64,000 nt of DNA, from the NCBI GenBank assembly GCA_965305135.1, contig CBDLPA010000017.1, positions 7,620-71,619 on the forward strand, written 5' to 3'. The stretch comes from an uncultured Colwellia sp. GTDB lineage: Bacteria; Pseudomonadota; Gammaproteobacteria; Enterobacterales; Alteromonadaceae. Under the pieces are notes generated by a model. The model did no database searches. It was not told the DNA's origin and worked only from the letters and a program-made list of their open reading frames with translations. Of the stretch, positions 11,471-27,697 are shown in pieces. Made by a program: the position numbers and the translations under genes. Position 1 is the first letter of the stretch. Each line of letters starts with the position of its first letter.

Positions 11471-11850
11471 GGAAATACAGGTACCAGAATACCCCCATTG
11501 ATTAATATGTTCAATTACTGGGGACATTTCACTTCAAAACCTGCCTATTAACTACCCTCTATTTTTGTCATTCGGTATTTTCTTTGCCCACTCCTGATAT
11601 TTATTATAATCCAATCTATAAAATGCCAAATCAAAATATACTATACCAGACCGCTCAGGAATTAGACCAACAGTTTCCCTTGATAATCGCACTACTAAGC
11701 TTTAGCCTTATTTAGGGAATAAATCTCTTTTAAGTAACGCTCTTACTTGTTAGGTTAAATTCACTTCACCTAGTATTTATACTACTAGGTGTATATGACA
11801 AACATAAAAATCAATGAATCTATTGTTATAAAATACAGAAATCAATTAGG

Positions 11851-12501
11851 TTATTGAGCAATATTAATACGATAAGCTCGTAAAATAATGACAGGGGTCG
11901 TTAAAATTTGTCCTTGCAAAAATTTAATATGAGTTTCACCTTTTCGCTCTTTGTTAGAAATTTTTTGTACTACATCCATGCCTTTAATAACTTTTGCAAA
12001 TGCTGGAAAACCACGACTATCAGGTTTTTGTCTACCATTTTGATCAAAAGAAGGAATGTCATCCAAACAGATAAAAATATCAGGAATTGCATGACCCGTC
12101 TCTAATATATCGCGTGCCATTGAAACCGTAGCTACTTGATGTTTTAGTTTAGAATAGGATGTTGCTTCAAAGTCATCTAAAATAGGTAAACCAGAATTTT
12201 TCACTGACGTTAAGTCGCCTTTTAAAATGAACTTGTCCACTAGACCTCCTTCTATAAATTGAGGGGTTTCCCCTGCGACTGACCCTGAACGATAAAAACT
12301 GGTTCCATTAAACTTTCCTTGCTCAATTAATGATAGAAAATACTTTGCACTTTTAGGAGCTTGTTTGTTGTTAACCTCAATAACGATATTACCCATCGTG
12401 GTTTCAAATATAACCACAGGTTTTTGATGCTTGTCAGTTGCCAATGCGGAAAAGGCTAATAACCAAGTAAACAATAATGGCGCACTTAAAAAAAATTTCA
12501 T
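11851..12501 (-). CDS. Exported cyclophilin-type peptidyl-prolyl cis-trans isomerase
   Basis: VVIFETTMGNIVIE, AP-x-SAKYFL, FNGTSFYR, VSMAR, AFAKVIKGMDVVQKI. Signal peptide if the start is ATG 12501 (MKFFLSAPLL). Confidence 0.8.
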   Translation of the reverse strand: MKFFLSAPLLFTWLLAFSALATDKHQKPVVIFETTMGNIVIEVNNKQAPKSAKYFLSLIEQGKFNGTSFYRSGSVAGETPQFIEGGLVDKFILKGDLTSVKNSGLPILDDFEATSYSKLKHQVATVSMARDILETGHAIPDIFICLDDIPSFDQNGRQKPDSRGFPAFAKVIKGMDVVQKISNKERKGETHIKFLQGQILTTPVIILRAYRINIAQ

Positions 12502-12511
12502 ACCTAATCCC

Positions 12512-14173
12512 TTATTTATTTTTAAACTTTTCAGATTCATATAACTTCTGCTTTCTTACCATTTCTTTTACATCTTCAAGCAATTGATGAGCATCGTACA
12601 CAATGCCATCTTTAATAGTAAATTCTATTCCTTTTGTTCTATCCATTTTATTGGTTGTAAAGTTGTAGAATGCATGTCCTGTTCCGTAGAGTACTTTAAA
12701 GTTATCTAAGGGGTTTTCATTCACAATGACCAAATCTGCTTTTTTTCCTAATTCAATGCTACCAATCTCTTTTTCTAATCCCATTAGTTTTGCACCATTT
12801 ATTGTTGCAGATTGCAATACCTCCAGTGGATGAAAGCCTGCTTCTTGGAGTAACTCTAATTCTCTAACATAGTTAAAGCCATATAACCCATAAATAAAAC
12901 CAGCATCAGACCCAACAGCAACGCTACCACCTGCATTTTTGTAGTCATTAACAAATGTCATCCATGTTTTATAATTTGCTTTCCATGCTATTTCATCAGA
13001 TGTTTTCCAATCAAAGAAAAATGAGCCGTGAATTTTAGGGTTTGGTGCAAACGCTCGATTAATGTACGGCATAGTATATTCTTTATGCCACTCAGCATTT
13101 TGTGCTCTACCTAAATCACGCGCTGCTTCATAAATAGTAAAAGTAGGATTTAACGTAATATCTAAATTAATCAGCTCAGAAATGGTGTTTTTCCATATGG
13201 TTGAATCAGGTGTCGCTGTTTGTTGCCATAAACGTCCTGCTTGGCTAAATCTATCTTGTTCATTATTATAGTTATAGTCATGAGGATAATTTTGAATACG
13301 CTTATTTTCAAACATAGCTTCAGGTAAACCATACCAATGTTCTATGCTTTTTACTCCCATTCTTGCTGCATCTAATGCATCTGTTCGAGTGACGGAAACC
13401 TGTGAAAGATGAAAAGCTGATCCCATATTTAATTGATTGGTTTCATCAAGTGCAGCCTTAATAATATCAGGTGCCGCCCCGATAAATTTCACACCATCGG
13501 CACCACGTTTATTAACAGATTTAACCCATTTTCTAGCAGCTTCGGTCGATACCATTTTCTCTGGAAACAAGGCATATGCTTTAATTCGTGGAGCTGAAAT
13601 TTCGCCTTGTTCACTGCGTTTCTTATGTGAAAGAGTGTAATCAAGTCCCATAAATGAGCCAACATCTCGCACTGTGGTAATACCATGAGCAAGAAGTAAT
13701 TTAAAAACATAATTTGGGTCAGTCAAAGCACCACCAAAAGCATGACTTGGGGTTCCCAGATGAGAGTGAACATCTATCAGCCCAGGGAGAACATATTTAC
13801 CTTTTGCATCTATAACACGTGTATCTTTTCCGTAAGCTTTACCCTTTAAATGAACTGAACCTGTACCACCACCATTAATTTCCTTAATGACATTATTCTC
13901 AATAACAATAGTCACAGGCCCCTGAGTTGGCGCACCAGTGCCATCAATTATGTTAGCATTTTCAATAACAAGCCTTTTATAAGGGCCTTTTTTCTCTTTA
14001 CCACTTGGTAATGCAGGCTTTGGGGCTGGAAAACCTAAGCCAATTACTTGTGAAATTATCTCTTCTCCAGCTTCAACCGCTGCAGAAGAATTTAAACCTT
14101 CTGTAGCAGATACACTTGCATGGATACAAAATAATAATGAAATCAAACATTGTGTTTTTCTTACATACTTCAT
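12512..14173 (-). CDS. Exported metal-dependent amidohydrolase (often annotated Xaa-Pro dipeptidase-like)
   Basis: LPGLIDVHSHLG metal motif, GITTVRDVG, GVKF, GSDAG, GSIELGKKADLVI. Start moved to ATG 14173 after an AGGAG RBS, giving a signal peptide. Confidence 0.85.
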   Translation of the reverse strand: MKYVRKTQCLISLLFCIHASVSATEGLNSSAAVEAGEEIISQVIGLGFPAPKPALPSGKEKKGPYKRLVIENANIIDGTGAPTQGPVTIVIENNVIKEINGGGTGSVHLKGKAYGKDTRVIDAKGKYVLPGLIDVHSHLGTPSHAFGGALTDPNYVFKLLLAHGITTVRDVGSFMGLDYTLSHKKRSEQGEISAPRIKAYALFPEKMVSTEAARKWVKSVNKRGADGVKFIGAAPDIIKAALDETNQLNMGSAFHLSQVSVTRTDALDAARMGVKSIEHWYGLPEAMFENKRIQNYPHDYNYNNEQDRFSQAGRLWQQTATPDSTIWKNTISELINLDITLNPTFTIYEAARDLGRAQNAEWHKEYTMPYINRAFAPNPKIHGSFFFDWKTSDEIAWKANYKTWMTFVNDYKNAGGSVAVGSDAGFIYGLYGFNYVRELELLQEAGFHPLEVLQSATINGAKLMGLEKEIGSIELGKKADLVIVNENPLDNFKVLYGTGHAFYNFTTNKMDRTKGIEFTIKDGIVYDAHQLLEDVKEMVRKQKLYESEKFKNK

Positions 14174-15542: not shown

Positions 15543-17834
15543 TTAATAAAAGCTATATGTTGCTGATATACCGAAGGTACGCGGTTCATTACGAGTAACC
15601 GCAACAAGACCAAATGTATTCATTTGACCTGTGTAAGAGTTTAAAAACACTTCATCAGTTAAATTACTACCAAAAATAGCAAATTCCCAATCACTTTGCG
15701 TTAATAATGATAACCTAGCACTTACGGTCGTATATGCCTCTTGCTCTAATGTTTCATGAATCTGATGATCACCTTTGTAAGCAATGCTGATAAAGCCACG
15801 CAGTTCACCTGCCCCTTCAATTTCTTTAAAATAATCTAACGCTACACTTCCCTCAAAGTTTGGGGAGTACAATAAAGGTGTGCCCGCTAAATCTACACCA
15901 CCACTGATGTATTCATCATATTCGGCGTCCATCCAAGTACCATTGAGAACTACGGCTAAATCAGAAGTGACTTGATAATTCATGTCAAATTCTAATCCTT
16001 GATTTGTTGCTTTACCCGCATTGGCTAATTGCACAACAGTGCCTACAATTTCTCTTACTTGTAAATCTTCATAATCCAATACAAACAATGATGCATTCAA
16101 GGTTAAATCATCATCTAGCCATGTAGATTTTAGCCCTAATTCATAACTTGTCGCTAATTCAGGATCAACACTGGCTGTAGCATCTGGCGTAACAATAAAG
16201 CCAGAATCCGTTGCTGGCGAAGGATAAGTATTAAAACCTCCTGACTTATATCCCATCGTCACACTACCGTAAATCATGGCGTCATCAGATAATTTATAAT
16301 CCACAACAAAACGCGGAGAAAAATCATCCCAATCATCATCTAAGTGTTGATAAGCTGGATTAGGAATACCATTTTCATCAACAAACTGTGATGCTATTGG
16401 CATAACAAAACCTAACCCTCCCAAATTAACTGCACCTTGTGTTTGAATGGGATTATTGTAATGAATACTTTTATCATCACTCGAATAACGAGCTCCTACA
16501 GTGAGATTTAATTTATCGTTAACATGCCAAGTAGCATCACCGTAAACGGCAAAACTATCAGTAACAGTACGAACTTGGCTATCTTCAAGAAAAGGTGCAC
16601 CATTATTAAGGTTACTACCTATTAATGGACCAAAATCAAATAATCCAATTAAAAAGTCCATTTTATTTCGTTCGTGTGAATAACTCGTGCCAATAAACCA
16701 ATCCAGACTATCACTTGCTCCAGATAATCGAAATTCTTGGCTTATTGTTTCGTTATGTTCTTTAGAGCCTTCATTTTCACCAAAATAATATTCCGTACCG
16801 TCATAATCAGAAGTATTAAAAGTAGTAAAAGTTCTATAAGCTGAAAGCGAAGTAAAAGTGATACCATCATTCACAAACCAATCAACTGATAAAGAATGGT
16901 CGCGTACCCGACGGTCTAATATTGGTACTAAAGGGGCTTGATCATTATTTGAATTTCCCCAAAAATCTAAGCCTCCATTAACCATTTTTTTATCATCATG
17001 TACTTGAGCTAATTCATCAATAGGATAAACAGATGAATAATTCTCTAAATTAGTAGACACCTCATCAAAACGACTCCAACCATTAGACTGGTTTACTTCA
17101 ATATCATCATGAGGATACCAAGTAAATTTAAGGCGACCCGATGCACGATCTCTAGAGTTCCCTTTCACTGAACTTAACTTGTTTTCTTGCCACCCATCTC
17201 GTTTGCGTACAACACCCGACGCACGCACGTATAATGAATCATCAATTAAAGGTATATTAATTAACCCCTTTACAACTTGAGAGTTATAGTTACCAAGCTC
17301 TAACGCTATTTCGCCAGATAAATCCTCGGTAGGTTTTGCCGTTACTATGCTAATAGCCCCACCAATAGAGTTACGACCAAATAACGTACCTTGTGGGCCT
17401 TTTAAAATTTCTATTCTTTCAATATCCATCAAATCGGTAAGTGCGCCCCCATTTCTGGACGCATATATACCATCAATATAAATACCAACACTAGGATCTA
17501 CACCAACACCTGTATCATTCGAGCCAACACCACGAATATAAGATCGTGGAAATGCATCACTTCCCCCAACAACACTAAAACCTGGGGTAACATCAGTAAG
17601 GCCTTTAAAATCAGTAGCACCAATTTGTTTAATCATATCTCCACTAAAAGCTGACATAGAAATGGGTACTTCTTGTACACTTTGCAAACGTTTTTGTGCA
17701 GAAACCATTATGACTTCTATATCGCCATTGTTGGTTAATTTATTTTTATCTTGTGCGGATATTTGCGTTGACATACAAATTGCACTTGCCAATAAGGAAA
17801 TAGAGGAAACTCTACTTATTGTTGATATATTCAT
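15543..17834 (-). CDS. TonB-dependent receptor
   Basis: EVIMVSAQKRLQSVQEVP, IERIEILKGPQGTLFGRNSIGGAI, C-terminal PRTFGISATYSFY. Confidence 0.93.
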   Translation of the reverse strand: MNISTISRVSSISLLASAICMSTQISAQDKNKLTNNGDIEVIMVSAQKRLQSVQEVPISMSAFSGDMIKQIGATDFKGLTDVTPGFSVVGGSDAFPRSYIRGVGSNDTGVGVDPSVGIYIDGIYASRNGGALTDLMDIERIEILKGPQGTLFGRNSIGGAISIVTAKPTEDLSGEIALELGNYNSQVVKGLINIPLIDDSLYVRASGVVRKRDGWQENKLSSVKGNSRDRASGRLKFTWYPHDDIEVNQSNGWSRFDEVSTNLENYSSVYPIDELAQVHDDKKMVNGGLDFWGNSNNDQAPLVPILDRRVRDHSLSVDWFVNDGITFTSLSAYRTFTTFNTSDYDGTEYYFGENEGSKEHNETISQEFRLSGASDSLDWFIGTSYSHERNKMDFLIGLFDFGPLIGSNLNNGAPFLEDSQVRTVTDSFAVYGDATWHVNDKLNLTVGARYSSDDKSIHYNNPIQTQGAVNLGGLGFVMPIASQFVDENGIPNPAYQHLDDDWDDFSPRFVVDYKLSDDAMIYGSVTMGYKSGGFNTYPSPATDSGFIVTPDATASVDPELATSYELGLKSTWLDDDLTLNASLFVLDYEDLQVREIVGTVVQLANAGKATNQGLEFDMNYQVTSDLAVVLNGTWMDAEYDEYISGGVDLAGTPLLYSPNFEGSVALDYFKEIEGAGELRGFISIAYKGDHQIHETLEQEAYTTVSARLSLLTQSDWEFAIFGSNLTDEVFLNSYTGQMNTFGLVAVTRNEPRTFGISATYSFY

Positions 17835-18063
17835 TCTTCACCCTCGATCTTGTTGATAGTTATTTTTATTATTAACAGACTTTATTCAGAAACTATGACT
17901 ATGTCTCTATGCCCATTTATCAAACTAGACTACGTTGTTTAAACACTGTACTCCCTGCTGAAATGCCATGATTTTCTACACAAACACCAAATGTTGAATA
18001 TAGATGGGCGATAGATTGCGGCATTCACACGCCTGTATTAAGATGAATTACAAATAAATAGAA

Positions 18064-19092
18064 GTGAATAAACTGATGGCAGAATCAACCACACTGACCG
18101 AAATAGATAACAAACATATATTCTCTTTTTCTCCAGAAGAGCTATTTAGTCGGTGCCATCAGAATTTAGACGCCGCTTCGATGGTTTCTGTTTACGATTT
18201 ACTTTCTCCCAATCAAGAAGATTGGATTGAAGGCAATTATAATTTTTGGTATTTCAACGATGAATTTGCTGTTGGTTTCCGAGATTTAAAAATAAAACAA
18301 GACCTTACAACAATATCCCCCTTAAAAAAAACATTAAGTTTAGAATATTTACTGATTGGCGGTTCAGACATGCAATTAGGCCAAAAAAGTATTAATGCTA
18401 ACGGTATGCCAAAAATTTATATTTCAAGCCATTGCAACAATGGGCAACAAACTCGGTTTTATAAAAAAGGTGAGTACATCAAAAGTATTGGTTTTTGGAT
18501 AACCCCTGACTACCTTAAGCAAACCTTTGATTTAGATATGGAACAATTGCCACTAAATTTCAAATCAATGTTAAATTTAGAACAAGATATTACAGCCATA
18601 ATCCCAATGACAAGCCAAATTAAAGTGATAGTAAGTGAAATGCTCTCTCCCCCTTTCACTGGCGCATTGTTAAACCAATACTTGCAAGCAAAAATGACAG
18701 AATTACTTTGCCATACAATATTAAGTATGTTTTCACCAGAGTTAACTTTTCAAGAAAATAATCAACTGTCTCGTCAAAAATCTAACGTAATGAAAAAGTT
18801 ACTACAAATTTTAGAAGAGCAATCTAGTTCGCCACCATGTTTAGAGCAACTAGCTAAACAGTTAGCAATAAGTCGTAGTTCAATGACAAGTACATTTAAG
18901 GCAAGTTACGGAATGACAATATCTGACTATGTATTTCAAAAACGCATGAATAAAGCTCAGCAATTATTGAAAACGGGTAAATATACTGTATTAGAAGTGG
19001 CGTTAGAAATTGGCTATGATGATCAATCTAGTTTTGGAAGAGCCTACAAACGTTTCTTCAATTATCCTCCTAATGAAGAACGACCTAAGTAA
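18064..19092 (+). CDS. AraC-family transcriptional regulator
   Basis: C-terminal double HTH (LEQLAKQLAISRS...FK; VLEVALEIGYDDQSSFGRAYKRFF); divergent from the TBDR. Confidence 0.9.
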   Translation: MNKLMAESTTLTEIDNKHIFSFSPEELFSRCHQNLDAASMVSVYDLLSPNQEDWIEGNYNFWYFNDEFAVGFRDLKIKQDLTTISPLKKTLSLEYLLIGGSDMQLGQKSINANGMPKIYISSHCNNGQQTRFYKKGEYIKSIGFWITPDYLKQTFDLDMEQLPLNFKSMLNLEQDITAIIPMTSQIKVIVSEMLSPPFTGALLNQYLQAKMTELLCHTILSMFSPELTFQENNQLSRQKSNVMKKLLQILEEQSSSPPCLEQLAKQLAISRSSMTSTFKASYGMTISDYVFQKRMNKAQQLLKTGKYTVLEVALEIGYDDQSSFGRAYKRFFNYPPNEERPK

Positions 19093-19224: not shown

Positions 19225-19243
19225 AATAATACAAATCATTTTT
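19225..19243 (+). promoter_or_regulatory. Putative Fur box upstream of the hmu-like operon
   Basis: AATAATACAAATCATTTTT matches 13/19 positions of GATAATGATAATCATTATC by manual comparison; the AT-rich context weakens this. Confidence 0.4.
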
Positions 19244-19312
19244 ATTTGCGTAAAAATAAATCTAATGATAACCTACTCGCCAATAGTAATACTTCTCACT
19301 TAGATTTAACAA

Positions 19313-21346
19313 ATGAATACTTATTCCTCCGCACTTATAAAAAAACCATTTCCACTCTTTTGTTTATGTTTTAGCGTTTTTAGTTTTTCAGATGATTATA
19401 AAACAGTTAATGAAAACCATCTTGAACATATAGTTATATCTGGCACTCGAACCCCAAAGTTACTCTCTAATTCTCCCGTGTCAATTCAAGTTATAGATCA
19501 AGAAACAATCCAAATATTAACTCAGGGAACATTAGCTAACGCACTTAATTATATTCCTGGGTTGGTCGTTACTCGTAATGTAAAAGATGGCTACAACATA
19601 CAAATGCAAGGTTTTGATGGTGACCATGTACTGGTACTAGTTAATAGCCAACCATTAATTTCACCTGCTGGTTCAGCGGCAGATTTAGATCAAATTAATG
19701 CAAATGATATTGAACAAATAGAAGTACTACGCGGTGCGGCATCAGTAATGTACGGCAGCTCAGCAATGGGTGGTGTAATTAACATCATTACCAAAGAGGT
19801 TGATGAAAACAAACTCAAAATCAGTTTGCAAGCAAGCCAATACACTGATGCTTTAGAAGATGACCCAATTTCATACACTACTAGAGTTAATGCTAACCTT
19901 ACGGTGAAAGACTGGGATTATAAAGTAAGCTTGTTACATATTGACAATACAGGGTTTGACTATGATCCAGCAACAATAAGCCAAGATGCCAATGGCATGA
20001 AGAAATCATTCATTAATCTATCAAGTAAAACAAAATCATTTAATCTATTTGGTAATGATGAAGTTAATGCAGAAATTAAATATCAGTATTTAACGGAAGA
20101 CAAATCACGCCCAACAGCAAGAGTACCAGGGCAAGATTCAATCATTAAATACCTTTCAGAAGTAGAACAAAATCAATTCGATCTGTCATTAAATACCAAT
20201 GTATTTAATGACGAACAACATAAAATTCAACAAGGTAGTTGGCAACTCAATGGTCGTTATATTAATCACCAAGAAGTGAGTGGCCAAACAAGCGGTATTC
20301 GAGATACGGAGATTGACTTAGCTGAGATTAACGGACAATACGTTTATTCAACCGACAACCTAGAAATAGTCTCAGGTGGTGTGATCCATTTCGATAACCT
20401 CAATCAAATAAAGCCTGACACACAAACTGTTGAAATTGATGATGAGTCTCGCCACAGTATTGATGCATTTGCTCAAGCAAACTGGATTCAATCTACATAC
20501 CAAGTGCTTGCAGGATTGCGAACTCAATATGACTCTGATTTTGGTTTTCATTCTGCGTTTAGAATAAGCAGCATGAATAATTTTGGTGATAAAGAAAGTC
20601 AATGGCAATGGCGTAATGGTTTTGGTCAAGGCTATCGAGTTCCTAGCCTTAAAGAACGTTTTTATTTATTTGATCATAGCAACTTAGGTTACATGGTATT
20701 GGGATCGTCTGATCTTAAACCAGAAGAATCAAATACAATAAATACAACATTAAGCTATAGCACTGAAGTCTTTAAAAGTTCAGAATTATTAAACAAGGCA
20801 CAGTTAAAAACAGAATTTAACGCGCATTTTTCTAAAACCAAAAACTTTATTGAAGCGGTTTACCATCCTGAAAAATCAGCGGAAACAAAATTAGATGTTT
20901 CTGTGTATCAAAATGTTTCTCAAGCCACAATTCAAGGTATCGATTTCAGTATAGACCTTACGTTTAACGAATGGTCTGGGCAATTAAATTACAGTTACCT
21001 TGATGCACGCGATGAAGAAGGACAACGTTTAGCTGAACGGCCTTATCATCAAATAAAAACTAACCTTGGTTATCATAATTATCAACATGAAATAGATGTT
21101 TTGTTTTTTGTTGTTTATCAATCAGGTGAAGCGTACGACAGTACTTACACCAACGTAATAAATAATCACTGGCTTAGCGCCAATATAAATATAAACCAAA
21201 ATATTAACCAACAACTTTCTTGGAATTTTGGTATTGACAATATTTTTAACGAGCATAAAGCCGCTAACGCCAGTAGTTTAAATGCTTTTGACTCTCGGCC
21301 TGTATCAAACAGAAACCTGTCATTAGGCATCAAATATCAATTTTAA
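19313..21346 (+). CDS. TonB-dependent receptor, CirA/HmuR-like (heme or metal-complex)
   Basis: HIVISGTRTPK, IEQIEVLRGAASVMYGSSAMGGVINIIT, FR-x-PSLKE, C-terminal GIKYQF; directly upstream of an HmuY-like gene. Confidence 0.9.
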   Translation: MNTYSSALIKKPFPLFCLCFSVFSFSDDYKTVNENHLEHIVISGTRTPKLLSNSPVSIQVIDQETIQILTQGTLANALNYIPGLVVTRNVKDGYNIQMQGFDGDHVLVLVNSQPLISPAGSAADLDQINANDIEQIEVLRGAASVMYGSSAMGGVINIITKEVDENKLKISLQASQYTDALEDDPISYTTRVNANLTVKDWDYKVSLLHIDNTGFDYDPATISQDANGMKKSFINLSSKTKSFNLFGNDEVNAEIKYQYLTEDKSRPTARVPGQDSIIKYLSEVEQNQFDLSLNTNVFNDEQHKIQQGSWQLNGRYINHQEVSGQTSGIRDTEIDLAEINGQYVYSTDNLEIVSGGVIHFDNLNQIKPDTQTVEIDDESRHSIDAFAQANWIQSTYQVLAGLRTQYDSDFGFHSAFRISSMNNFGDKESQWQWRNGFGQGYRVPSLKERFYLFDHSNLGYMVLGSSDLKPEESNTINTTLSYSTEVFKSSELLNKAQLKTEFNAHFSKTKNFIEAVYHPEKSAETKLDVSVYQNVSQATIQGIDFSIDLTFNEWSGQLNYSYLDARDEEGQRLAERPYHQIKTNLGYHNYQHEIDVLFFVVYQSGEAYDSTYTNVINNHWLSANININQNINQQLSWNFGIDNIFNEHKAANASSLNAFDSRPVSNRNLSLGIKYQF

Positions 21347-21396
21347 TACGTTAACAATCAAAAAATTAAACACTCATTATTTTAAAACATGAACCC

Positions 21397-22518
21397 TTGG
21401 AGAAAAAAATGAATAGAAAACTTAACTTAATCACTGGCATGTTCGTCGCTTTAGGGTTAACTGCGTGTGGAAGTAGCTCAGACAGTACAGAAAACACCAC
21501 TCCAGATCCAACACCTGAAGTAGGCGTAATTTATGGACCATTTAGCACAGGCACAGTACAAGATAGAACATTTGCCTATTTTGATGTTGATACATTATCA
21601 CTCGTCGAATTGACAGAAGAACAAGCAGCTACTGATACTACATGGGATATTGCTTTTAAAGGTAGCAGTGTTTACCTAAATACCAATGATAGTGAGCACC
21701 CTGTTAGCCTTTACTTTACCAATAATAACAGTGATTTTTATGATGAAAATGGTGACCCTGTTGTTGATAAGTTTATTAACGCTACCGCTGAAGATAATTT
21801 AGCAGATTTTATAGCCGTGACTAACGACAACATACCTACTGATGACGCATTCAAAACAGATGTAGTAGAAAGTATTCTAGACGGCTTTTACAATTATGAT
21901 TCAGAAACTCATCAAATAACAGCAGCAGATGATCATTACTTTATCGCTTATTCAGACACAACCGTTACTAAATTTAGAGTAACTGAATTAACACAAGTTG
22001 GCTATGGTATGACTAACTTAACAATTAGCTACGCAAACCAATTAACAGGCGCAACTGAATTTGACACACAAACAACTGAACTCGTGATTGATGCTACATT
22101 AGAGTGTAGTAATGATGATGCAATTTATATCGATTTTGATGTTAATGCTATCGTAACCAATGGCGATGCTTGGGATATAAAAATACCTTGTTTAGCTAGT
22201 GAAACAGACACCGCGGCAGATTTTACATTAACCCTCGCAGATGACGCCACAGCCATACAAGATTTTACTAACAGTTACAACGGCATACCTGAGTCAAATA
22301 TTCCCTATTATAGTTTTCAACCAAATGAATACTCCGTTGTCGCTTTCAAAGAAAACCCTTGGTATCAGTACAACCTTGAAGGCGGTCATAAGCTTTGGTC
22401 TCAGTACGGCGTATATTTACTAAAAAATGTAAATGGTGTTTTTAAACTGCAATTAACCAGCTATTACGATACTGACGGTAATTCAGGTAACTATTCATTG
22501 CGTGTTGAAGCACTTTAA
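21397..22518 (+). CDS. HmuY-family heme-binding lipoprotein (apparently two HmuY-like domains)
   Basis: Lipobox LTAC; WDIAFK and WDIKI repeats, WYQYNL-x-GGH-x-LW, VFKLQLTSYYD...SGNYSLR tail typical of HmuY. Confidence 0.75.
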   Translation: MEKKMNRKLNLITGMFVALGLTACGSSSDSTENTTPDPTPEVGVIYGPFSTGTVQDRTFAYFDVDTLSLVELTEEQAATDTTWDIAFKGSSVYLNTNDSEHPVSLYFTNNNSDFYDENGDPVVDKFINATAEDNLADFIAVTNDNIPTDDAFKTDVVESILDGFYNYDSETHQITAADDHYFIAYSDTTVTKFRVTELTQVGYGMTNLTISYANQLTGATEFDTQTTELVIDATLECSNDDAIYIDFDVNAIVTNGDAWDIKIPCLASETDTAADFTLTLADDATAIQDFTNSYNGIPESNIPYYSFQPNEYSVVAFKENPWYQYNLEGGHKLWSQYGVYLLKNVNGVFKLQLTSYYDTDGNSGNYSLRVEAL

Positions 22519-22638
22519 ATATTGTTCAAATAACCATAATTTTAATGAGTGACTAACGATTAAAAATTAAGTGACTCATGTTGTATTTAATCCAAGTGAT
22601 AACACAATTAAAAAGGTTATCACTGTTAGGTAATTTTT

Positions 22639-23235
22639 ATGATCAGCTACATAGAACAAACCATGTATCAGTTGTCAGATTTTTTTATGGCTCCGGTACT
22701 ATTACTTATTAGTTTACTTTTTGTATATGCATTATTCGCTACAGGGCAATTTTTTACCCAAAGTATTCAACGCAAACAAAATAAAGTAAATTTTCTACAA
22801 TTAATATCAAGTAAATTAGGTGAAAACAAGCAACTTTCTTTGGCAGGTTATACCTTATCGAAATTAGCAAATAAACAACCTAACATCAGTAAAGATCAAC
22901 TTGATGTTGCTGCACTTTGTGATCTTGAAGGTGTAAGAAATGTAAGCCGTTTAGCGCCTATGCTAGGTTTAATCGCCACTATGGTTCCTATGGGGCCAGC
23001 ATTAAAAAGTTTAGCTGACGGCAACATTCAAGGAATTAGTGAAAATTTAATCGTGGCATTTTCTTCTGTTATTTTCGGCTTAGTTATCGCATCTATTACC
23101 TTTTGGATCGCCTCAGTTAAAAAACGATGGTTAGCACAAGAACTAGTAGCGTTAACGCCGCTATTACATCATACCTCTCTATCATCATTACATTCAACAA
23201 CGCCAATAGAGGATAAAAAAAATGAGGCTGCTTGA
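22639..23235 (+). CDS. MotA/TolQ/ExbB-family membrane protein (HmuU-like)
   Basis: RLAPMLGLIATMVPMGPALKSL...NLIVAFSSVIFGL motif. Confidence 0.85.
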   Translation: MISYIEQTMYQLSDFFMAPVLLLISLLFVYALFATGQFFTQSIQRKQNKVNFLQLISSKLGENKQLSLAGYTLSKLANKQPNISKDQLDVAALCDLEGVRNVSRLAPMLGLIATMVPMGPALKSLADGNIQGISENLIVAFSSVIFGLVIASITFWIASVKKRWLAQELVALTPLLHHTSLSSLHSTTPIEDKKNEAA

Positions 23236-23527
23236 CGAAGACGAGGGAATAAATCCAGCTTTATCTGTAGTTAACTTAGTGGATGTATTTTTAGTATTAA
23301 TTGCTGCTCTATTAATTGCTATTGCACAAAACCCTTTAAATCCTTTTTTATCTGAAGATGTCACTGTTATCAAAAATTCAGGCAAAGATAATATGGAAAT
23401 TATTGTAAAAAAAGGCAATAAAATTGAATCGTTTAAAAGCCAAGGAAAAACAGGTGCTGGTACAGGTAAAAAAGCTGGAACGGCTTACGAAATGGCAGAT
23501 GGTTCTATCATCTATGTTAGTGAATAG
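23222..23527 (+). CDS. DUF2149 protein (HmuV-like, single TM)
   Basis: NPALSVVNLVDVFLVLIAALL and C-terminal G-x-G-x2-AGTAYEMADGSIIYV; overlaps the ExbB-like stop. Confidence 0.8.
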   Translation: MRLLDEDEGINPALSVVNLVDVFLVLIAALLIAIAQNPLNPFLSEDVTVIKNSGKDNMEIIVKKGNKIESFKSQGKTGAGTGKKAGTAYEMADGSIIYVSE

Positions 23528-23587
23528 TATTCGTAAAGTAATGCTATCCCCCTTTAAATTCAATAATAATTATATTTAGAGCAAACA

Positions 23588-26500
23588 ATGAAAATTATTC
23601 AAAAAATAACGAGCTTGTTTATTTTATTAACAAGCTTATGTATTAGTTGTATTACACAAGCTAATGAAAGTTCAACTACAAAGTTACTCTTTGTAGGTTC
23701 TGCGCACTCAAATAAAGCAAAAGTAACCTTATTAAATGAAATAGCCAATAAAAATACCAATAATCATTGGGAAATCACTTACAAGTCAGCACGTAGTATG
23801 GGCGACCTAACGCTAGCAAAAACACTCTTTAATCAGCAAGATATTATTGTGTTTGACGCGGTATCAGTTAACGAATCGTCAAAAACTTTTGCTAAATTTT
23901 TACCCTTGGTCAACCAAACGAACCAAACAAAATTCATCAGTATAAGTTGGTTAGAAAACCCTAAAGCTCATCAAGGTTTTAGCGTTCCACAATTGCAAAT
24001 CATTTCCGATTATTGGAACAATGCAGGGCGAAAAAACTTAACAAATTTATTAACCTACCTTGCCGTTGATATTCTTAAGCGAAACAAGCAAGATATTGCT
24101 CAAGCGCCAATTATTTTCCCCCTACAAGGTATTTATCATCCTAATCAACCTAACCTAATCAGCGATAACTTAAATGCCTACCAACGTTGGTCAGCCCCTA
24201 AAAAAGATCAACCACGCATTGCCCTATTGTTACAAAGAGCCCTAATTGAAAGCGAACAAACACAAGTAATTGATGCCACTATTAAACAACTAGAAAAAAA
24301 AGGCGTCTATGTCGTGCCTTTTTTCTTTGAATTGAACCGAACAAGTGGAAATTATCAACATTTATTATTGCTAGAAGATGAGATAGCAAGCGGTAAAAAA
24401 CAAACCAGTGAAATTGACTTAATTATTAGCTTTAGAAATATCCATTGGGCAAATAAACGTAGAGTTGAATTTGAAACATTTGGCGTGCCTATTATACAAG
24501 CCATGACTTATTATTCTGGTGATCAAAAAGCGTGGGAAGAAGACAAACAAGGTGTTTCTGCTGGTATGATGGCATTTACCTTAGTATTACCAGAAAGTGC
24601 CGGTGTGGTTGACCCTATGGTCGTTGCGGCTATGGATACTAAAACACAAACAGCTAAAGTTATCGACTATCAATTAACGCATTTAGTCAATAAAGCAATA
24701 AACCTAGTCAAACTAAAATATAAAACTAATCAAAATAAAAAACTAACTGTATTTATTTGGGGCGATCAAGATGTTGGGGCTTCTTTTATGAATGTGCCTG
24801 CAAGTTTAACGTCTATTAAACAACATTTGGCTAAAAAAGGTTACGTGACAGGCCAACAAACTCAAGAATACATTACCAACAATGTTAACCGTATTTTAGA
24901 TCCCTTCTATCGCGATTATCAATTAACCCAATTACTTAATGATGATCTAGCTGAATTAATGCCAATGAAGCGATATCTTGCTTGGTTTAACAGTCTACCT
25001 GCAGAAGTATCAACCCCCATTAGTGATTATTGGGGAGATCCTAAAGATCACTTTATGGCTGTAGAGCAGGACGGGGAATACTATTTCATTCTACCGCGCA
25101 TTCGCGATGGTAATATACTCATAATGCGTCAACCACCGCGCACCGACAAAAAAAATGATGAAACGGCTGTTTACCATCAAGGAACTGTGCCTATGAATCA
25201 TTTTTATTTAGCGGCTTATTTTTACGCCCGTGAATACTGGCAAAGTGATGCGATAGTGCATTTAGGAACACATGGTTCACAAGAGTATTTAGGAGGTAAA
25301 GAGCGTGGTTTATCTATTTATGATCAAGGTAATCTAGCAGTATGGGATACACCTGTTGTGTATCCGTTTATTGTTGATGATGTGGGTGAAGCCATGCAAA
25401 CTAAACGCCGTGGACGCGCAACCGTTATTTCGCACATGACACCTCCTTTTGCTGCCGCGGGTTTGCACGGTGACATGAGTGATTTACATGATTTAATGCA
25501 TCAATATAAATCATTAGATCAAGGCGGGGTAAAACAAAAAACAGCTAAGAAAGTTGTAGAATTATGTTTCAGCAGCAATATTTGCAAAGATATTGCTTGG
25601 GAAAAAGACAAAATAGATAAAGACTACGATACTTTTTTTGACGACCTGCATAATCATTTAGAAGCGCTCGCTAGTGCCAATCAACCATTAGGCTTACATA
25701 CTTTTGGTCAACTTGCCGAACAAGAATTACTAATAACTACCTTAATTCAAATGTTAGGAAAGGAGTTTACTCAGCACGCCAGTAAATTTGAACATAAATA
25801 CTATAATCATTTAGACAATTCAGATGAAAGTCACCATGAAAAAACAAATGATATACAAGATGAAGTAGACATTACCCAATTAGCTGGTTTTAATTTTGTA
25901 AAAGACTATATTGTTAATTCAAAGACTAACCAGAACGATCACAAACACTCTCAACCTATTGCCCCAAAAGCACTTAGTGAAGAATTATCAACCTTTGTTA
26001 AACGTGGTAAAACCCTTTACCACGCAATGACTGGCATTCATGAATTAGAAGCCATGAGTGATTTTTTAGCAAATAAATATATTCCCGTTAAAACAGGTGG
26101 CGATCCTATTCGTCACCCTGAATCATTATCTACTGGCTACAACTTGTATGGCTTTGACCCATCAAAAGTACCTACCAAGGCAGCGTTTGAACAAGGTAAA
26201 GAATTAGTAGATGAAATGATTCATAACTATCAGAAAAAAAATGGTAAATTTCCTGACAAAATGGCATTTTCATTATGGTCAATAGAAACCATGCGCCATT
26301 ACGGTGTATTAGAATCACAGGTATTGTATGCCATGGGAGTTACGCCAAAATGGAGCGCTAGTGGACGCATAATCGGTACAGACATTATTCCTTACAGCGA
26401 ATTAAAACGCCCCCGCATAGACGTTGTATTGTCTGCTACTGGCTTATATCGCGATGCTTTTCCAGGTGTCATTCAATTGCTAGCAAACGCCGTTAAACAA

Positions 26501-27697
26501 GTCGCTGAATTAAAAAAAGACAGCGACTCAATATGGGATAATAAATTTGAAAATCATGTGGCCTTAAATAGCCAACGTATTCAAAACGAATTAACAGAAC
26601 AAGGCATTGACGCTGACGAAGCCCAGTATTTGTCAACTATTCGCGTATTTTCTAATGCTTCAGGTGACTATGGCTCGGGTGTTGATGGCCCAGCGTGGGC
26701 AAGTGATACATGGGAGACAGATAAGAAAATATCAGATAATTATTTAGGTAAAATGGGATTTTTCTTTGGTAGCGACAGCGCACGTTGGGGAGAAAAAGCA
26801 AAAGATTCACAAGGGAAAGACATTCAACTTTACGCGAAACAATTATCAGGTACAGATATAGCCTCATTCTCACGTTCATCAAACTTATTCGGCATGTTAA
26901 GTTCAGATGATCCGTTTGAGTACTTTGGTGGTATTAGTTTAGCTGTACGTAATATTGATGGGAAAAGTCCTGATATGATGATTTCAAATTTACGCAATGC
27001 TACCAACGCTAAACCAGAAGATGCCGCTTTATTTATGGCAAAAGAACTTAGAACGCGCATGTTTCATCCTCGTTGGATAAAAGAAATGCAAAAAGAAGGC
27101 TACGCTGGTGCTGTGTCATTGGCATCAAAAATGGACAACTTTTTTGGTTGGCAAGTGGTAGATCCTAACCTAGTTAGAAATGATCAATGGGATGAATACT
27201 TCGATATTTATGTTAACGACAAACTTAATATTGAATTAGATAAGTGGTTTGAAAACATCAACCCAGCGGCCGTTGCCCGTATGATGACAAGAATGCTAGA
27301 AGCTGAACGTAAAGACTATTGGCAAGCAGATCCTCAGCGCTTAAAGCAACTAGTTGAAAGGTATATTGACATAGTAAATCGCTACGATTTAATTATACAA
27401 AACGATGCATTACGTGAAAATGTTAACGAACTTGCGACAGGTTTTGGTTTAGCCGCCCTATTACAACAACCCACACTCGAAGATATGGCCAAGCAAACAA
27501 ATAAACAAAAGGAGCAAAACCAGCAACAAATAATTAAAGCTGAACAAAATAAGGAAAACAAACAGGTTGAAGGCCAAAAACTTGAAAAACAAAGTAAAAA
27601 ACAAACAACTGAACCTAATTACTTTATTTGGCAAGCGATATCAATAATGCTGATAATTATGCTTTTAGGTGCTATGCGACAGCATTTCAAAAAATAG
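23588..27697 (+). CDS. CobN/magnesium chelatase H-like protein, exported and membrane-anchored (HmuS-like)
   Basis: HLGTHGSQEYL, ISHMTPP, RPRIDVV-x-SATGLYRD, SSDDPFEYFGG, RMFHPRWIKEMQKEGYAGA; N-terminal signal peptide and C-terminal TM helix. Confidence 0.88.
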   Translation: MKIIQKITSLFILLTSLCISCITQANESSTTKLLFVGSAHSNKAKVTLLNEIANKNTNNHWEITYKSARSMGDLTLAKTLFNQQDIIVFDAVSVNESSKTFAKFLPLVNQTNQTKFISISWLENPKAHQGFSVPQLQIISDYWNNAGRKNLTNLLTYLAVDILKRNKQDIAQAPIIFPLQGIYHPNQPNLISDNLNAYQRWSAPKKDQPRIALLLQRALIESEQTQVIDATIKQLEKKGVYVVPFFFELNRTSGNYQHLLLLEDEIASGKKQTSEIDLIISFRNIHWANKRRVEFETFGVPIIQAMTYYSGDQKAWEEDKQGVSAGMMAFTLVLPESAGVVDPMVVAAMDTKTQTAKVIDYQLTHLVNKAINLVKLKYKTNQNKKLTVFIWGDQDVGASFMNVPASLTSIKQHLAKKGYVTGQQTQEYITNNVNRILDPFYRDYQLTQLLNDDLAELMPMKRYLAWFNSLPAEVSTPISDYWGDPKDHFMAVEQDGEYYFILPRIRDGNILIMRQPPRTDKKNDETAVYHQGTVPMNHFYLAAYFYAREYWQSDAIVHLGTHGSQEYLGGKERGLSIYDQGNLAVWDTPVVYPFIVDDVGEAMQTKRRGRATVISHMTPPFAAAGLHGDMSDLHDLMHQYKSLDQGGVKQKTAKKVVELCFSSNICKDIAWEKDKIDKDYDTFFDDLHNHLEALASANQPLGLHTFGQLAEQELLITTLIQMLGKEFTQHASKFEHKYYNHLDNSDESHHEKTNDIQDEVDITQLAGFNFVKDYIVNSKTNQNDHKHSQPIAPKALSEELSTFVKRGKTLYHAMTGIHELEAMSDFLANKYIPVKTGGDPIRHPESLSTGYNLYGFDPSKVPTKAAFEQGKELVDEMIHNYQKKNGKFPDKMAFSLWSIETMRHYGVLESQVLYAMGVTPKWSASGRIIGTDIIPYSELKRPRIDVVLSATGLYRDAFPGVIQLLANAVKQVAELKKDSDSIWDNKFENHVALNSQRIQNELTEQGIDADEAQYLSTIRVFSNASGDYGSGVDGPAWASDTWETDKKISDNYLGKMGFFFGSDSARWGEKAKDSQGKDIQLYAKQLSGTDIASFSRSSNLFGMLSSDDPFEYFGGISLAVRNIDGKSPDMMISNLRNATNAKPEDAALFMAKELRTRMFHPRWIKEMQKEGYAGAVSLASKMDNFFGWQVVDPNLVRNDQWDEYFDIYVNDKLNIELDKWFENINPAAVARMMTRMLEAERKDYWQADPQRLKQLVERYIDIVNRYDLIIQNDALRENVNELATGFGLAALLQQPTLEDMAKQTNKQKEQNQQQIIKAEQNKENKQVEGQKLEKQSKKQTTEPNYFIWQAISIMLIIMLLGAMRQHFKK

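What the first reader, a model, noticed from the sequence alone, without database searches (positions are those of the whole stretch)
19313..27697. Bacteroidetes-style hmu operon with an exported CobN-like protein in a gammaproteobacterium: candidate periplasmic heme dechelatase
Seen: TBDR, HmuY-like lipoprotein, ExbB-like, DUF2149 and a 1369-aa CobN-like protein with a signal peptide and C-terminal TM helix. There are no cobS/cobT/bchI/D or other cobalamin genes and no cobalamin riboswitch, but there is a Fur-like box. Known: this content parallels Porphyromonas/Bacteroides hmuYRSTUV, whose CobN-like HmuS is linked to iron release from heme, and the zinc-responsive P. aeruginosa PA1922-1925 cluster (both recalled from memory). 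Inference: a chelatase run in reverse in the periplasm to strip metal from tetrapyrroles (heme, possibly chlorophyll or B12 derivatives in seawater). The ExbB-like/DUF2149 pair could act as a proton-motive energiser in place of the ATPase subunits.
Basis: partly seen in the sequence, partly recalled or inferred. Interest (0 to 1): 0.68.

Follow-up and report, generated by a model that had tools for sequence, protein, structure and literature searches.

The report
Marine heme-iron operon with exported CobN-like enzyme
A marine Colwellia-type bacterium carries a five-gene operon that most likely imports heme and strips its iron outside the cytoplasm with a chelatase relative run in reverse; this would be an aerobic, proteobacterial cousin of the gut Bacteroides hmu system and could explain how marine bacteria without known heme-degrading enzymes use heme iron.

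Summary
Window 19313-27697 encodes a TonB-dependent receptor, an HmuY-family lipoprotein, a MotA/ExbB-like protein, a DUF2149 protein and a 1369-aa CobN-like protein with a signal peptide and a C-terminal membrane helix. There is no B12 riboswitch, and the genome lacks CobT.

The gene content matches Bacteroides hmuY-R-S-U-V, without hmuT. The CobN-like protein is not a Bacteroidota-type HmuS. It belongs to a proteobacterial clade that is sister to the Zur-regulated PA1923 type, which this genome also carries on another contig. It lacks the HmuS hallmarks: Asp replaces His1209, Met79/His254 are not aligned, and a His-rich insert replaces the Met-rich one.

Heme is still the best-supported substrate. 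In Alteromonas and Paraglaciecola the same receptor/HmuY pair is followed by a heme-type ABC importer and a HugZ/HutZ-like protein. In nine other loci it is followed by the CobN-like gene instead. The genome lacks the HemS, HO and HutZ families. Fur-like boxes recur at the orthologous promoters, but the window's own box is weak.

DUF2149/ExbB-like pairs were found only in genomes that also carry an exported CobN-like gene, even where a canonical TonB-ExbB-ExbD set is in the same operon.

Verdict: a new variant of a known kind. The function is inferred, not shown.

The parts
19225..19249 (.). Fur-box-like operator candidate (AATAATACAAATCATTTTTATTTGC), 64-88 bp upstream of the receptor start codon
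   Evidence: 6 of 19 mismatches to GATAATGATAATCATTATC, which is not above chance on its own. The block is conserved at orthologous promoters: L004 TTGATAATCATTGCTATTTAC, L006 TTGATAATCATTCGTATTTAT, A. macleodii GCAAATCATTATCATTTGC. L008, L032 and L033 have boxes with 4 mismatches.
19293..19306 (+). Second conserved promoter-proximal block, TTCTCACTTAGATT
   Evidence: Identical in the Colwellia MAG L004 and similar in L005 (AATAATTCTCATTAG). Its function is not assigned.
19313..21346 (+). TonB-dependent outer-membrane receptor (HmuR analogue), 677 aa
   Evidence: Plug plus barrel domains. The best NCBIfam model is TonB-hemin at 146 bits, below its 317-bit cut-off. A His (FDHSN, residues 453-457, nt 20669-20683) lies between the YRVP and S/NxxLxPE boxes. 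It is conserved in all HmuY-linked receptors and absent from the Zur-type paralog. The protein is 43% identical over its full length to the A. macleodii receptor that heads an ABC/HugZ-like cluster.
21397..22518 (+). HmuY-family lipoprotein, 373 aa from the TTG start. The ATG at 21409 gives 369 aa, as in the database cluster.
   Evidence: PF14064 scores 28.2 bits. It has an LTAC lipobox. The profile search against PDB gives BfrB 8b6a at E=3.4e-15 and HmuY 3h8t at E=0.003. Y167 and H172 are invariant. H172 aligns with Met171 of a Bacteroides HmuY, an axial-ligand position (PMC12106395). NCBI names its relatives 'HmuY family protein'.
22639..23235 (+). MotA/ExbB-like membrane protein (HmuU analogue), 198 aa
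   Evidence: PF01618. It is 31% identical to Bacteroides HmuU. It overlaps the next gene by 14 nt.
23222..23527 (+). DUF2149 protein (HmuV analogue), 101 aa, with one N-terminal helix that holds an invariant Asp (NLVDV, D21)
   Evidence: PF09919 scores 100 bits. It is 44% identical to Bacteroides HmuV. The Asp is invariant in 10 relatives.
23588..27697 (+). Exported, C-terminally anchored CobN-like protein (HmuS analogue), 1369 aa
   Evidence: PF02514 scores 957 bits. NF004644 scores 1181 bits, below its 1248 cut-off. TIGR02257 scores 469 bits, below its 822 cut-off. The best PDB match is HmuS 9d26 at 410 bits. In the tree it falls in the clade holding the HmuY-linked proteobacterial loci.
23588..23662 (+). 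Signal peptide of the CobN-like protein (residues 1-25, ...CITQA|NE)
   Evidence: Read directly from the sequence. A hydrophobic N-terminus is shared by all exported relatives and absent in canonical CobN.
25259..25276 (+). HLGTHG motif. His562 corresponds to HmuS His538; Glu601 (nt 25376-25396 block) corresponds to Glu577.
   Evidence: Alignments. His538 is essential in HmuS (PMC12583661).
25751..26041 (+). Domain IV segment with a His/Asp/Glu-rich low-complexity insert (9 His in 97 aa), at the place of the HmuS Met-rich insertion
   Evidence: The clade that contains the HmuY-linked loci has 4-23 His here. The PA1923-type, Campylobacterales and canonical CobN proteins have 0-3. HmuS has 7-24 Met.
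26897..26932 (+). LSSDDPFEYFGG motif. Asp1108 stands where HmuS has His1209; Glu1111 corresponds to Glu1212.
   Evidence: Canonical CobN has SDDY(F/Y)Q. The genome's own Zur-type paralog and the Nitrosomonas and Leptothrix relatives have TDH.
27566..27589 (+). Conserved juxtamembrane motif VEGQKLEK in an otherwise low-complexity linker
   Evidence: Variants of V-x-G-Q-x-L-E-x-V occur in both proteobacterial clades, and G-V-V-M-K-K occurs in HmuS.
27620..27676 (+). C-terminal transmembrane helix (residues 1345-1363), followed by RQHFKK
   Evidence: The Kyte-Doolittle maximum is 2.06. All exported relatives score 1.6-3.1, and canonical CobN scores 0.05 or less.

Best explanation
The operon is an iron-acquisition system for heme or a close metalloporphyrin.

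Proposed steps:
1. The surface lipoprotein (HmuY family) captures heme.
2. The TonB-dependent receptor imports it into the periplasm.
3. The CobN-like protein faces the periplasm, tethered to the inner membrane by its C-terminal helix. It removes the metal and leaves the porphyrin, as HmuS does in Bacteroides.
4. Fe(II) enters the cell through FeoB or another ferrous transporter.
5. The ExbB-like/DUF2149 pair is a proton-channel stator that serves the CobN-like protein rather than the receptor. It probably acts through the protein's C-terminal helix and the conserved VEGQKLEK tether, taking the place of the AAA+ partners of true chelatases.

Compared with Bacteroidota, the system has His where the anaerobes have Met. 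This holds at one HmuY ligand position, at the receptor position between the FRAP-like and NPNL-like boxes, and in the domain IV insert. That pattern fits heme handling in oxic seawater.

Shown here: gene content, topology signals, homology, phylogeny, co-occurrence and the module swap. Inferred: substrate, direction of the reaction, iron regulation and the energy coupling.
For: 1. The Pfam content equals hmuY-R-S-U-V.

2. HmuY-family homology is solid at profile level.

3. There is a module swap. The homologous receptor (43% identity) and HmuY-like protein (45% identity) are followed in A. macleodii, A. antoniana, Paraglaciecola polaris and P. marina by Peripla_BP_2, FecCD and an ABC ATPase. 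In three of these four loci a PNPOx/DUF2470 HugZ/HutZ-like protein follows. In the window and in L004-L007, L014, L022, L032 and L050 the pair is followed by the CobN-like gene instead.

4. The genome lacks HemS/ChuS, HO-type heme oxygenase, HutZ and CobT, and it has FeoB.

5. There is no B12 riboswitch. There is no Zur box at this operon, although the genome's Zur motif marks its paralog on contig C16.

6. Fur-like boxes with 4-6 mismatches occur 30-90 bp upstream in most orthologous promoters.

7. The catalytic His562 and Glu601 are kept. His538 is essential in HmuS (PMC12583661).

8. In 201 class-level genomes, DUF2149 occurs in 6 genomes as 7 genes, each adjacent to a CobN-like gene. It occurs in none of the genomes that hold only canonical CobN/BchH-type hits.

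9. Two operons (L022, L023) carry a canonical TonB-ExbB-ExbD set as well as the ExbB-like/DUF2149 pair.

10. A. macleodii, which lacks a CobN-like gene in this locus, has no DUF2149.

11. The membrane Asp of DUF2149 is invariant, and the tether motif is conserved.
Against: - The CobN-like protein fails several HmuS-defining features. It has Asp at the His1209 position, as true cobaltochelatases do. Met79, His254-Gly-Arg and Gln299 are not aligned. There is no Met-rich insert, and identity to HmuS is only 24-33%.
- Its nearest characterised relatives by score are the Zur-regulated PA1923 type, whose function is unknown.
- A His/Asp-rich insert is also what a Zn, Ni or Co binding segment would look like.
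- The receptor scores about as well against B12 models as against hemin models, and below all cut-offs.
- The window's own Fur box is no better than chance.
- Three genomes have the ExbB-like/DUF2149 pair unlinked to any CobN-like gene within 8 kb.
- hmuT is absent.
- No expression or biochemical data could be obtained.
Confidence: 0.55

Rival explanations
1. The operon acquires a metal other than iron (zinc, cobalt or nickel), as free ion, metallophore or corrinoid. This is what is suspected for the Zur-regulated PA1922-1925 cluster. The CobN-like protein would bind or exchange that metal in the periplasm.
For: The protein sits in a 100%-supported clade with the PA1923 type and scores 1181 bits on that family's model. 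It has the CobN-type Ser-Asp-Asp motif and a His/Asp-rich insert. A Campylobacterales relative lies beside a DUF4198 gene. The receptor resembles B12 receptors about as much as heme receptors.
Against: There is no Zur box here, although the genome's Zur motif marks the paralogous cluster, a COG0523 GTPase gene and a His-rich ZnuD-like receptor. There is no cobalamin riboswitch. An HmuY-family hemophore-like gene is present. The same receptor/HmuY pair is coupled elsewhere to a HugZ/HutZ-like protein. Fur-like boxes occur in the orthologous promoters.
Confidence: 0.17
2. The system does import heme, but the CobN-like protein is not a dechelatase. It could be a periplasmic heme-binding or heme-reducing chaperone that passes heme to an unidentified inner-membrane route. 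It could also work in the forward direction, re-metallating imported porphyrins.
For: His1209, one of the two proposed axial or acid residues of HmuS, is replaced by Asp, as in forward chelatases. HmuS itself binds a non-substrate heme (PMC12583661). B. fragilis extracts show both forward and reverse activities that are affected by the CobN-like proteins (PMC6460266).
Against: No inner-membrane permease is encoded in the operon, and hmuT is missing. No HemS, HO-type or HutZ-type heme-degrading enzyme was found to use imported heme as an iron source. In sister genera the CobN-like gene occupies exactly the place of the importer-plus-oxygenase module.
Confidence: 0.15
3. It is the cobaltochelatase subunit CobN of aerobic B12 synthesis, as public annotation says.
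For: Database names and PF02514 membership.
Against: The protein has a signal peptide and a membrane anchor. TIGR02257 scores 469 bits against a cut-off of 822. The genome has no CobT. In the tree it is separate from canonical CobN. It lies in an operon with a receptor and a hemophore-like gene.
Confidence: 0.01

Closest known systems
hmuYRSTUV heme-utilisation operon of Bacteroidota, with HmuS heme dechelatase (B. thetaiotaomicron, PDB 9d26; P. gingivalis PG1551-1556)
   Same: Both have an HmuY-family lipoprotein, a TonB-dependent receptor, a CobN-fold protein with an export signal and a C-terminal membrane helix, a MotA/ExbB-like protein and a DUF2149 protein. Both keep the HxGTHG His and the Glu577 equivalent. 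Both have a conserved juxtamembrane motif and a low-complexity insert in domain IV.
   Different: The window has no hmuT, and the gene order is Y-R-U-V-S. Identity to HmuS is only 24-33%. Asp stands in place of His1209. Met79, His254-Gly-Arg and Gln299 are not aligned. The insert is His-rich rather than Met-rich. The host is an aerobic marine gammaproteobacterium rather than an anaerobic heme auxotroph. In the tree the protein forms a separate clade.
P. aeruginosa PA1922-PA1925 (Zur regulon: receptor, CobN-like, ExbB-family, DUF2149); NCBIfam NF004644
   Same: It belongs to the same proteobacterial clade of exported CobN-like proteins with the same partner pair. The window protein scores 1181 bits on NF004644. 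The genome's other copy (contig C16) scores 1518 bits, has the same gene order and has a Zur-type box.
   Different: The window operon adds an HmuY-family gene and has no Zur box. It has Asp, not His, at the 1209 position. It carries the His-rich insert. Its receptor has the heme-type His, which the Zur-type receptor lacks.
B. fragilis BtuS1/BtuS2 CobN-like proteins (periplasmic, needed with FeoAB for heme-iron use; PMC6460266)
   Same: They are exported, membrane-anchored CobN-like proteins tied to iron release from heme in the periplasm, with FeoB as the proposed iron entry route. FeoB is present here.
   Different: The btuS1-type operons lie behind cobalamin riboswitches (PMC10100974). None is present here.
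Receptor-HmuY-ABC importer-HugZ/HutZ-like clusters of Alteromonas and Paraglaciecola (found here; not described in any paper I found)
   Same: The receptor (43% identity) and HmuY-like lipoprotein (45% identity) are homologous, and both have Fur-like boxes.
   Different: The processing module differs. There it is an inner-membrane ABC importer plus a cytoplasmic PNPOx/DUF2470 protein. Here it is a periplasmic CobN-like protein with the ExbB-like/DUF2149 pair.

Membership tests
HmuS dechelatase family as defined by Nath et al. 2025 (PMC12583661) | Six-domain CobN/ChlH fold with an export signal and a C-terminal membrane helix | tested here: met
   PF02514 scores 957 bits. The best PDB match is 9d26. 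The signal peptide and C-terminal helix are present.
HmuS dechelatase family as defined by Nath et al. 2025 (PMC12583661) | HFG(T/A)HG motif with His538, and Glu577 | tested here: met
   HLGTHG with His562, and Glu601. These residues are superfamily-wide, so they do not discriminate.
HmuS dechelatase family as defined by Nath et al. 2025 (PMC12583661) | LSLDHxxEFMGG motif with His1209 | tested here: not met
   The window has LSSDDPFEYFGG, with Asp1108 at the His position. The same residue is found in all 18 close relatives in the alignment. It is the same as the canonical CobN SDD motif. Glu1212 is kept as Glu1111.
HmuS dechelatase family as defined by Nath et al. 2025 (PMC12583661) | Site-1 heme ligands Met79 and His254 (His-Gly-Arg), and Gln299 | tested here: not met
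   The aligned residues are DAVS, FRNIHW and MAFT. A conserved His lies two residues downstream of the His254 position. The head and neck regions align poorly, so a shifted ligand cannot be excluded.
HmuS dechelatase family as defined by Nath et al. 2025 (PMC12583661) | Methionine-rich insertion in domain IV | tested here: not met
   The 97 aligned residues hold 2 Met and 9 His. Relatives have up to 23 His.
HmuS dechelatase family as defined by Nath et al. 2025 (PMC12583661) | Encoded in a complete six-gene hmuYRSTUV operon, with at least 50% identity to B. theta HmuS | tested here: not met
   Y, R, U, V and S are present. There is no HmuT in the operon or the genome. Identity is 24-33%.
HmuS dechelatase family as defined by Nath et al. 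2025 (PMC12583661) | Converts heme to protoporphyrin IX and Fe(II) | not testable with these tools
   This needs biochemistry or genetics.
PA1923-type exported CobN-like protein (NCBIfam NF004644) | Score over the curated cut-off of 1248 bits | tested here: not met
   The window protein scores 1181 bits. Relatives score 1226-1234 bits. The genome's other copy scores 1518 bits.
PA1923-type exported CobN-like protein (NCBIfam NF004644) | Zur-box control | tested here: not met
   The genome scan for TGTTATAWTATAACA found sites before the C16 cluster, a COG0523 gene and a ZnuD-like receptor. It found none on contig C17.
HmuY family (PF14064) | Sequence membership | tested here: met
   PF14064 scores 28.2 bits against a cut-off of 27. 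The profile search gives BfrB at E=3.4e-15 and HmuY at E=0.003. The AlphaFold model was too poor to add much: pLDDT 60, and the best Foldseek probability (0.96) was for BfrB at E=0.035.
HmuY family (PF14064) | Two axial heme ligands (His or Met pairs) | tested here: inconclusive
   The invariant His172 aligns with Met171 of a Bacteroides HmuY. The first ligand position is not matched. Some family members bind heme without coordinating the iron (PMC12106395).
TonB-dependent heme receptor (TIGR01785) | Score over the cut-off, and a His between the FRAP and NPNL boxes | tested here: inconclusive
   The score is 146 bits against a cut-off of 317. The conserved FDHS His is present in all HmuY-linked receptors.
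Aerobic cobaltochelatase CobN (TIGR02257) | Score over the cut-off, a cytoplasmic location and CobS/CobT partners | tested here: not met
   The score is 469 bits against a cut-off of 822. The protein is exported. The genome has no CobT.

The most novel reading that the evidence does not exclude
Aerobic marine Gammaproteobacteria may possess an oxygen-independent, porphyrin-sparing route to heme iron. In this reading, a periplasmic CobN-fold dechelatase is driven by a dedicated proton-motive stator (ExbB-like/DUF2149) that engages its C-terminal helix and VEGQKLEK tether. This would be a chelatase-family machine powered by the membrane potential instead of AAA+ ATPases. It would be adapted to oxic water by replacing the Met ligands of the anaerobic Bacteroidota system with His. 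It would be interchangeable, as a module, with the classical ABC importer plus heme oxygenase, and it would release protoporphyrin IX into seawater.
Probability: 0.35. Interest if true: 0.8.

Novelty: new variant of a known kind. Interest (0 to 1): 0.62.

Why it matters
Heme is a significant pool of bioavailable iron in the sea. Yet copiotrophs such as Alteromonas were reported to lack a recognisable complete heme system (PMC7190382). HmuS-type dechelation has so far been presented as an anaerobic mechanism of Bacteroidota, and the complete hmu operon was reported only in Bacteroidetes (PMC10100974, PMC12583661).

If this operon strips iron from heme in the periplasm of aerobic marine bacteria, four things follow:
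- It adds a new route to the marine iron cycle, and a biological source of free porphyrin.
- It gives a natural pair of interchangeable modules, CobN-like versus ABC importer plus HugZ-like protein, with which to test function.
- It offers natural variants (Asp versus His at position 1209, His-rich versus Met-rich insert) for working out the dechelatase mechanism.
- The ExbB-like/DUF2149 pair was found only in genomes that carry an exported CobN-like gene, and in the class sample always beside one. That makes the question 'what powers a chelatase without its ATPase?' directly testable.

It would also correct the 'cobaltochelatase subunit CobN' annotation carried by the named homologs in public databases (at least 1,167 homologs were found).

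Tried and rejected

2. Structure of the HmuY-like protein. The AlphaFold2 model from 5 sequences was poor (pLDDT 60), and Foldseek gave no significant hit. A profile search against PDB sequences was used instead.

3. Profile comparison against a single Bacteroides HmuY sequence gave only E=0.016 and probability 2.8%. I used it only for the His172/Met171 correspondence, with caution.

4. The Fur box as stand-alone evidence was rejected after the chance estimate. Only the cross-species conservation is used.

5. Recent transfer from Bacteroidota was rejected. The CobN-like protein groups with proteobacterial relatives, and HmuS sits on a long separate branch.

6. The divergent AraC gene (18064-19092) as regulator of this operon was not pursued. 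It lies next to, and was assigned by an earlier agent to, the upstream peptide-uptake operon.

7. The simple terminator scan found nothing informative between the genes or after the CobN-like gene.

8. Literature searches for any description of HmuY-linked CobN-like operons in Proteobacteria or marine bacteria found none. The library is incomplete, so this is not proof of absence.

9. Adjacency of CobN-like and DUF2149 genes in Methanosarcina could not be checked, because control genomes give no loci.

Full report
**What is there.** Window 19313-27697 holds five same-strand genes with short gaps of 50, 120, -14 and 60 nt:
- a TonB-dependent receptor (Plug plus barrel);
- a lipoprotein that just passes the Pfam HmuY threshold (28.2 bits against 27);
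- a MotA/ExbB-like protein;
- a DUF2149 protein;
- a 1369-aa CobN/Mg-chelatase family protein (957 bits).

The last protein has a Sec-type signal peptide (cleavage after TQA, about residue 25). It also has a C-terminal hydrophobic helix (residues 1345-1363) followed by basic residues. All exported relatives share both features, and canonical CobN/BchH proteins have neither. No Rfam family reaches threshold in the window. The organism is a Colwelliaceae gammaproteobacterium, because the closest proteins are 76-82% identical to 'Colwellia sp.' proteins.

**Comparison with the Bacteroides hmu operon.** A Bacteroides locus fetched through an HmuS relative reads HmuY (PF14064), receptor, CobN-fold HmuS, a 233-aa protein without Pfam match (HmuT), MotA_ExbB (HmuU) and DUF2149 (HmuV). 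The window has counterparts of Y, R, U, V and S. No HmuT relative exists anywhere in the genome. HmuS of B. thetaiotaomicron has been shown to be a membrane-bound heme dechelatase. Its defining features are Met79/His254 (a bound heme), His538/Glu577, the LSLDH(1209)xxEFMGG motif and a Met-rich insertion (PMC12583661). I transcribed the HmuS sequence from that paper's Dataset EV3. A database protein is 100% identical to it over the full length.

**Residue tests.** In a 35-sequence alignment the window protein keeps the superfamily-wide HxGTHG His (His562) and Glu601. It has LSSDDPFEYFGG where HmuS has LSLDHVYEFMGG, so Asp1108 replaces His1209. The same Ser-Asp-Asp is found in solved cobaltochelatases and in all close relatives of the window protein. 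Met79, His254-Gly-Arg and Gln299 are not matched, although the head and neck regions align poorly. There is no Met-rich insertion. In the same domain IV segment the window's clade carries a His/Asp/Glu-rich low-complexity stretch instead. The window has 9 His in 97 residues, and relatives have up to 23 His in 144. The sister clade, a Campylobacterales relative and canonical CobN have 0-3. The protein therefore fails the strict HmuS membership test.

**Where it belongs.** The genome holds a second cluster on contig C16: receptor, CobN-like (1271 aa), ExbB-like, DUF2149. That is the order of P. aeruginosa PA1922-1925, a Zur-regulated cluster of unknown function. The second copy passes NCBIfam NF004644 (1518 bits against a cut-off of 1248). 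The window protein falls just below it (1181 bits), and B. theta HmuS scores 619 bits.

The tree (IQ-TREE, LG+G4, quick search) was rooted on canonical CobN/BchH. It separates a Bacteroides HmuS branch from a clade with 100% SH-aLRT support. That clade contains the PA1923-type group and a group that holds the window protein and all HmuY-linked loci. The PA1923-type members keep Thr-Asp-His at the 1209 position, and the window's group has Asp.

The genome's Zur-type motif (TGTTATAWTATAACA) lies in front of a COG0523 GTPase gene, a His-rich ZnuD-like receptor, an ABC system and the C16 cluster. It does not lie in front of the window operon. The two paralogous clusters therefore appear to answer to different metals.

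**Why heme remains the best substrate.**
- The lipoprotein is a real HmuY-family member. A 30-sequence profile hits B. fragilis BfrB at E=3.4e-15 and P. gingivalis HmuY at E=0.003. NCBI already names relatives in Colwellia, Catenovulum, Thalassotalea, Paraglaciecola, Pseudoalteromonas and Alteromonas 'HmuY family protein'.
- Its invariant His172 aligns with Met171 of a Bacteroides HmuY. That is an axial-ligand position in the family (PMC12106395).
- All HmuY-linked receptors carry a His between the FRAP-like and NPNL-like boxes (FDHS). The Zur-type receptor does not, and Bacteroides HmuR has Met there.
- The most telling evidence is a module swap. In A. macleodii, A. antoniana, Paraglaciecola polaris and P. 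marina the homologous receptor (43% identical, same motif) and HmuY-like gene (45%) are followed by a periplasmic binding protein and a FecCD permease. In three of the four loci a separate ABC ATPase and a PNPOx/DUF2470 protein related to HugZ/HutZ follow. In P. polaris a single 514-aa product without Pfam match follows the permease instead. That layout is a classical heme import and degradation cluster.
- In nine other loci the same pair is followed by the CobN-like gene instead. These are the window, L004-L007, L014, L022, L032 and L050.
- The window's genome (99.98% complete) lacks HemS/ChuS, HO-type heme oxygenase, HutZ and CobT. It has FeoB.
- No cobalamin riboswitch is found in any of these loci.

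**Regulation.** The window's Fur-like box has 6 of 19 mismatches and is no better than chance. The block is conserved, however. L004 and L006 have TTGATAATCATT cores at the same place. L008, L032 and L033 have boxes with 4 mismatches. A. macleodii has the palindrome GCAAATCATTATCATTTGC 36 bp before the start codon. Iron control is thus a reasonable inference, not a demonstrated fact.

**The ExbB-like/DUF2149 pair.** In 201 genomes sampled across the class, DUF2149 occurs in six genomes as seven genes. Each lies adjacent to a CobN-like gene. None occurs in genomes that hold only canonical CobN/BchH-type hits.

Two operons from other gammaproteobacterial families encode a full canonical TonB-ExbB-ExbD set and also the ExbB-like/DUF2149 pair directly before the CobN-like gene. 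The pair is therefore unlikely to be merely the receptor's motor.

Three genomes whose operon is only receptor-HmuY-CobN carry the pair elsewhere, unlinked. A. macleodii, which has the ABC/HugZ-type cluster, has no DUF2149. Among the control genomes, DUF2149 is found only in B. thetaiotaomicron and Methanosarcina acetivorans, and both also have CobN-fold proteins. Published counts likewise list HmuV and HmuS homologs in Methanomicrobia.

DUF2149 has an invariant Asp in its single membrane helix, reminiscent of ExbD/TolR (that comparison is from my own knowledge). The CobN-like tail has a conserved V-x-G-Q-x-L-E-x-V motif just before its membrane helix. Coupling of the stator to the CobN-like protein is inferred from these patterns only.

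**Synthesis.** The most likely reading (about 55%) is an iron-regulated heme acquisition operon. In it an exported CobN-fold protein extracts the metal in the periplasm, with the ExbB-like/DUF2149 pair as its dedicated partner. His appears in place of Met at three points: the HmuY ligand position, the receptor box and the domain IV insert. This parallels the published finding that His-ligated HmuY proteins bind heme under oxidising conditions, while Met-ligated ones prefer reducing conditions (PMC12106395). It fits an oxic habitat.

The main rivals are two. One is a non-iron metal role like that suspected for PA1922-1925. The other is a heme-handling role other than dechelation. The Asp at position 1209 and the His-rich insert keep both alive.

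**Novelty.** Published work places complete hmu operons only in Bacteroidetes and treats HmuY, HmuT and HmuV as diagnostic of that system (PMC10100974). The 2025-2026 HmuS papers discuss Bacteroidota only. I found no paper describing HmuY-linked CobN-like operons, or the alternative ABC/HugZ-like module, in marine Gammaproteobacteria. Earlier agents of this scan noted related HmuY-less clusters in other phyla. The window differs by its HmuY gene and the module-swap evidence. I rate it a new variant of a known kind.

Noticed in passing
own genome contig C16:2241-8764 (L003 2241-8764): A second cluster of PA1922-1925 type: receptor, CobN-like (1271 aa, NF004644 1518 bits), ExbB-like, DUF2149. 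A Zur-type palindrome (GATATGTTATATCATATC) lies 124 bp before the receptor gene. Its CobN-like protein keeps His at the HmuS 254 and 1209 positions.
   Followed up: partly
own genome C1:46160, C3:54948, C6:73775-75662, C18:1260: The Zur-box motif TGTTATAWTATAACA sits before a COG0523 GTPase gene, a ZnuD-like receptor with HDHDHDH loops, an ABC system and small MerC-like membrane proteins. This outlines the zinc regulon.
   Followed up: partly
L014 (Psychrosphaera algicola) 8983-13039: The HmuY-linked CobN-like gene matches in five tblastn pieces that abut or overlap. This suggests frameshifts or a pseudogene.
   Followed up: no
L005 (Psychrosphaera sp.) 613-13086: Two CobN-like genes are arranged divergently. 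One lies with ExbB-like/DUF2149 and has no His-rich insert. The other lies with the receptor and HmuY and has a His-rich insert.
   Followed up: partly
L027 and L028 (two gammaproteobacterial genomes of the class sample): A third, deeper clade of exported CobN-like proteins (1433-1486 aa) has weak HmuU- and HmuV-like neighbours, HLGRHS instead of HxGTHG, and NND at the 1209 motif.
   Followed up: no
L039, L040, L041 (P. aquimarina, T. marina, P. algicola): Stand-alone ExbB-like/DUF2149 gene pairs with no CobN-like gene within 8 kb, in genomes whose CobN-like gene sits in a three-gene receptor-HmuY-CobN operon.
   Followed up: partly
L009 (Campylobacterales MAG) 237-7715: ExbB-like, DUF2149, CobN-like, a 98-aa ORF, a DUF4198 protein and a receptor. 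DUF4198 has been linked to Ni/Co and to iron-responsive receptors in the literature.
   Followed up: no
window 21397-21411: The HmuY-like ORF starts at a TTG. An ATG four codons later (21409) matches the 369-aa database representative and is the likelier start.
   Followed up: partly
window 17855-17873: A Fur-like site (GATAGTTATTTTTATTATT, 5 mismatches) lies just upstream of the divergent receptor gene 15543-17834, which belongs to the neighbouring operon.
   Followed up: no
That would be a second Bacteroidota-hallmark system near this one. The CobN tree gives no sign of recent transfer from Bacteroidota.
   Followed up: no
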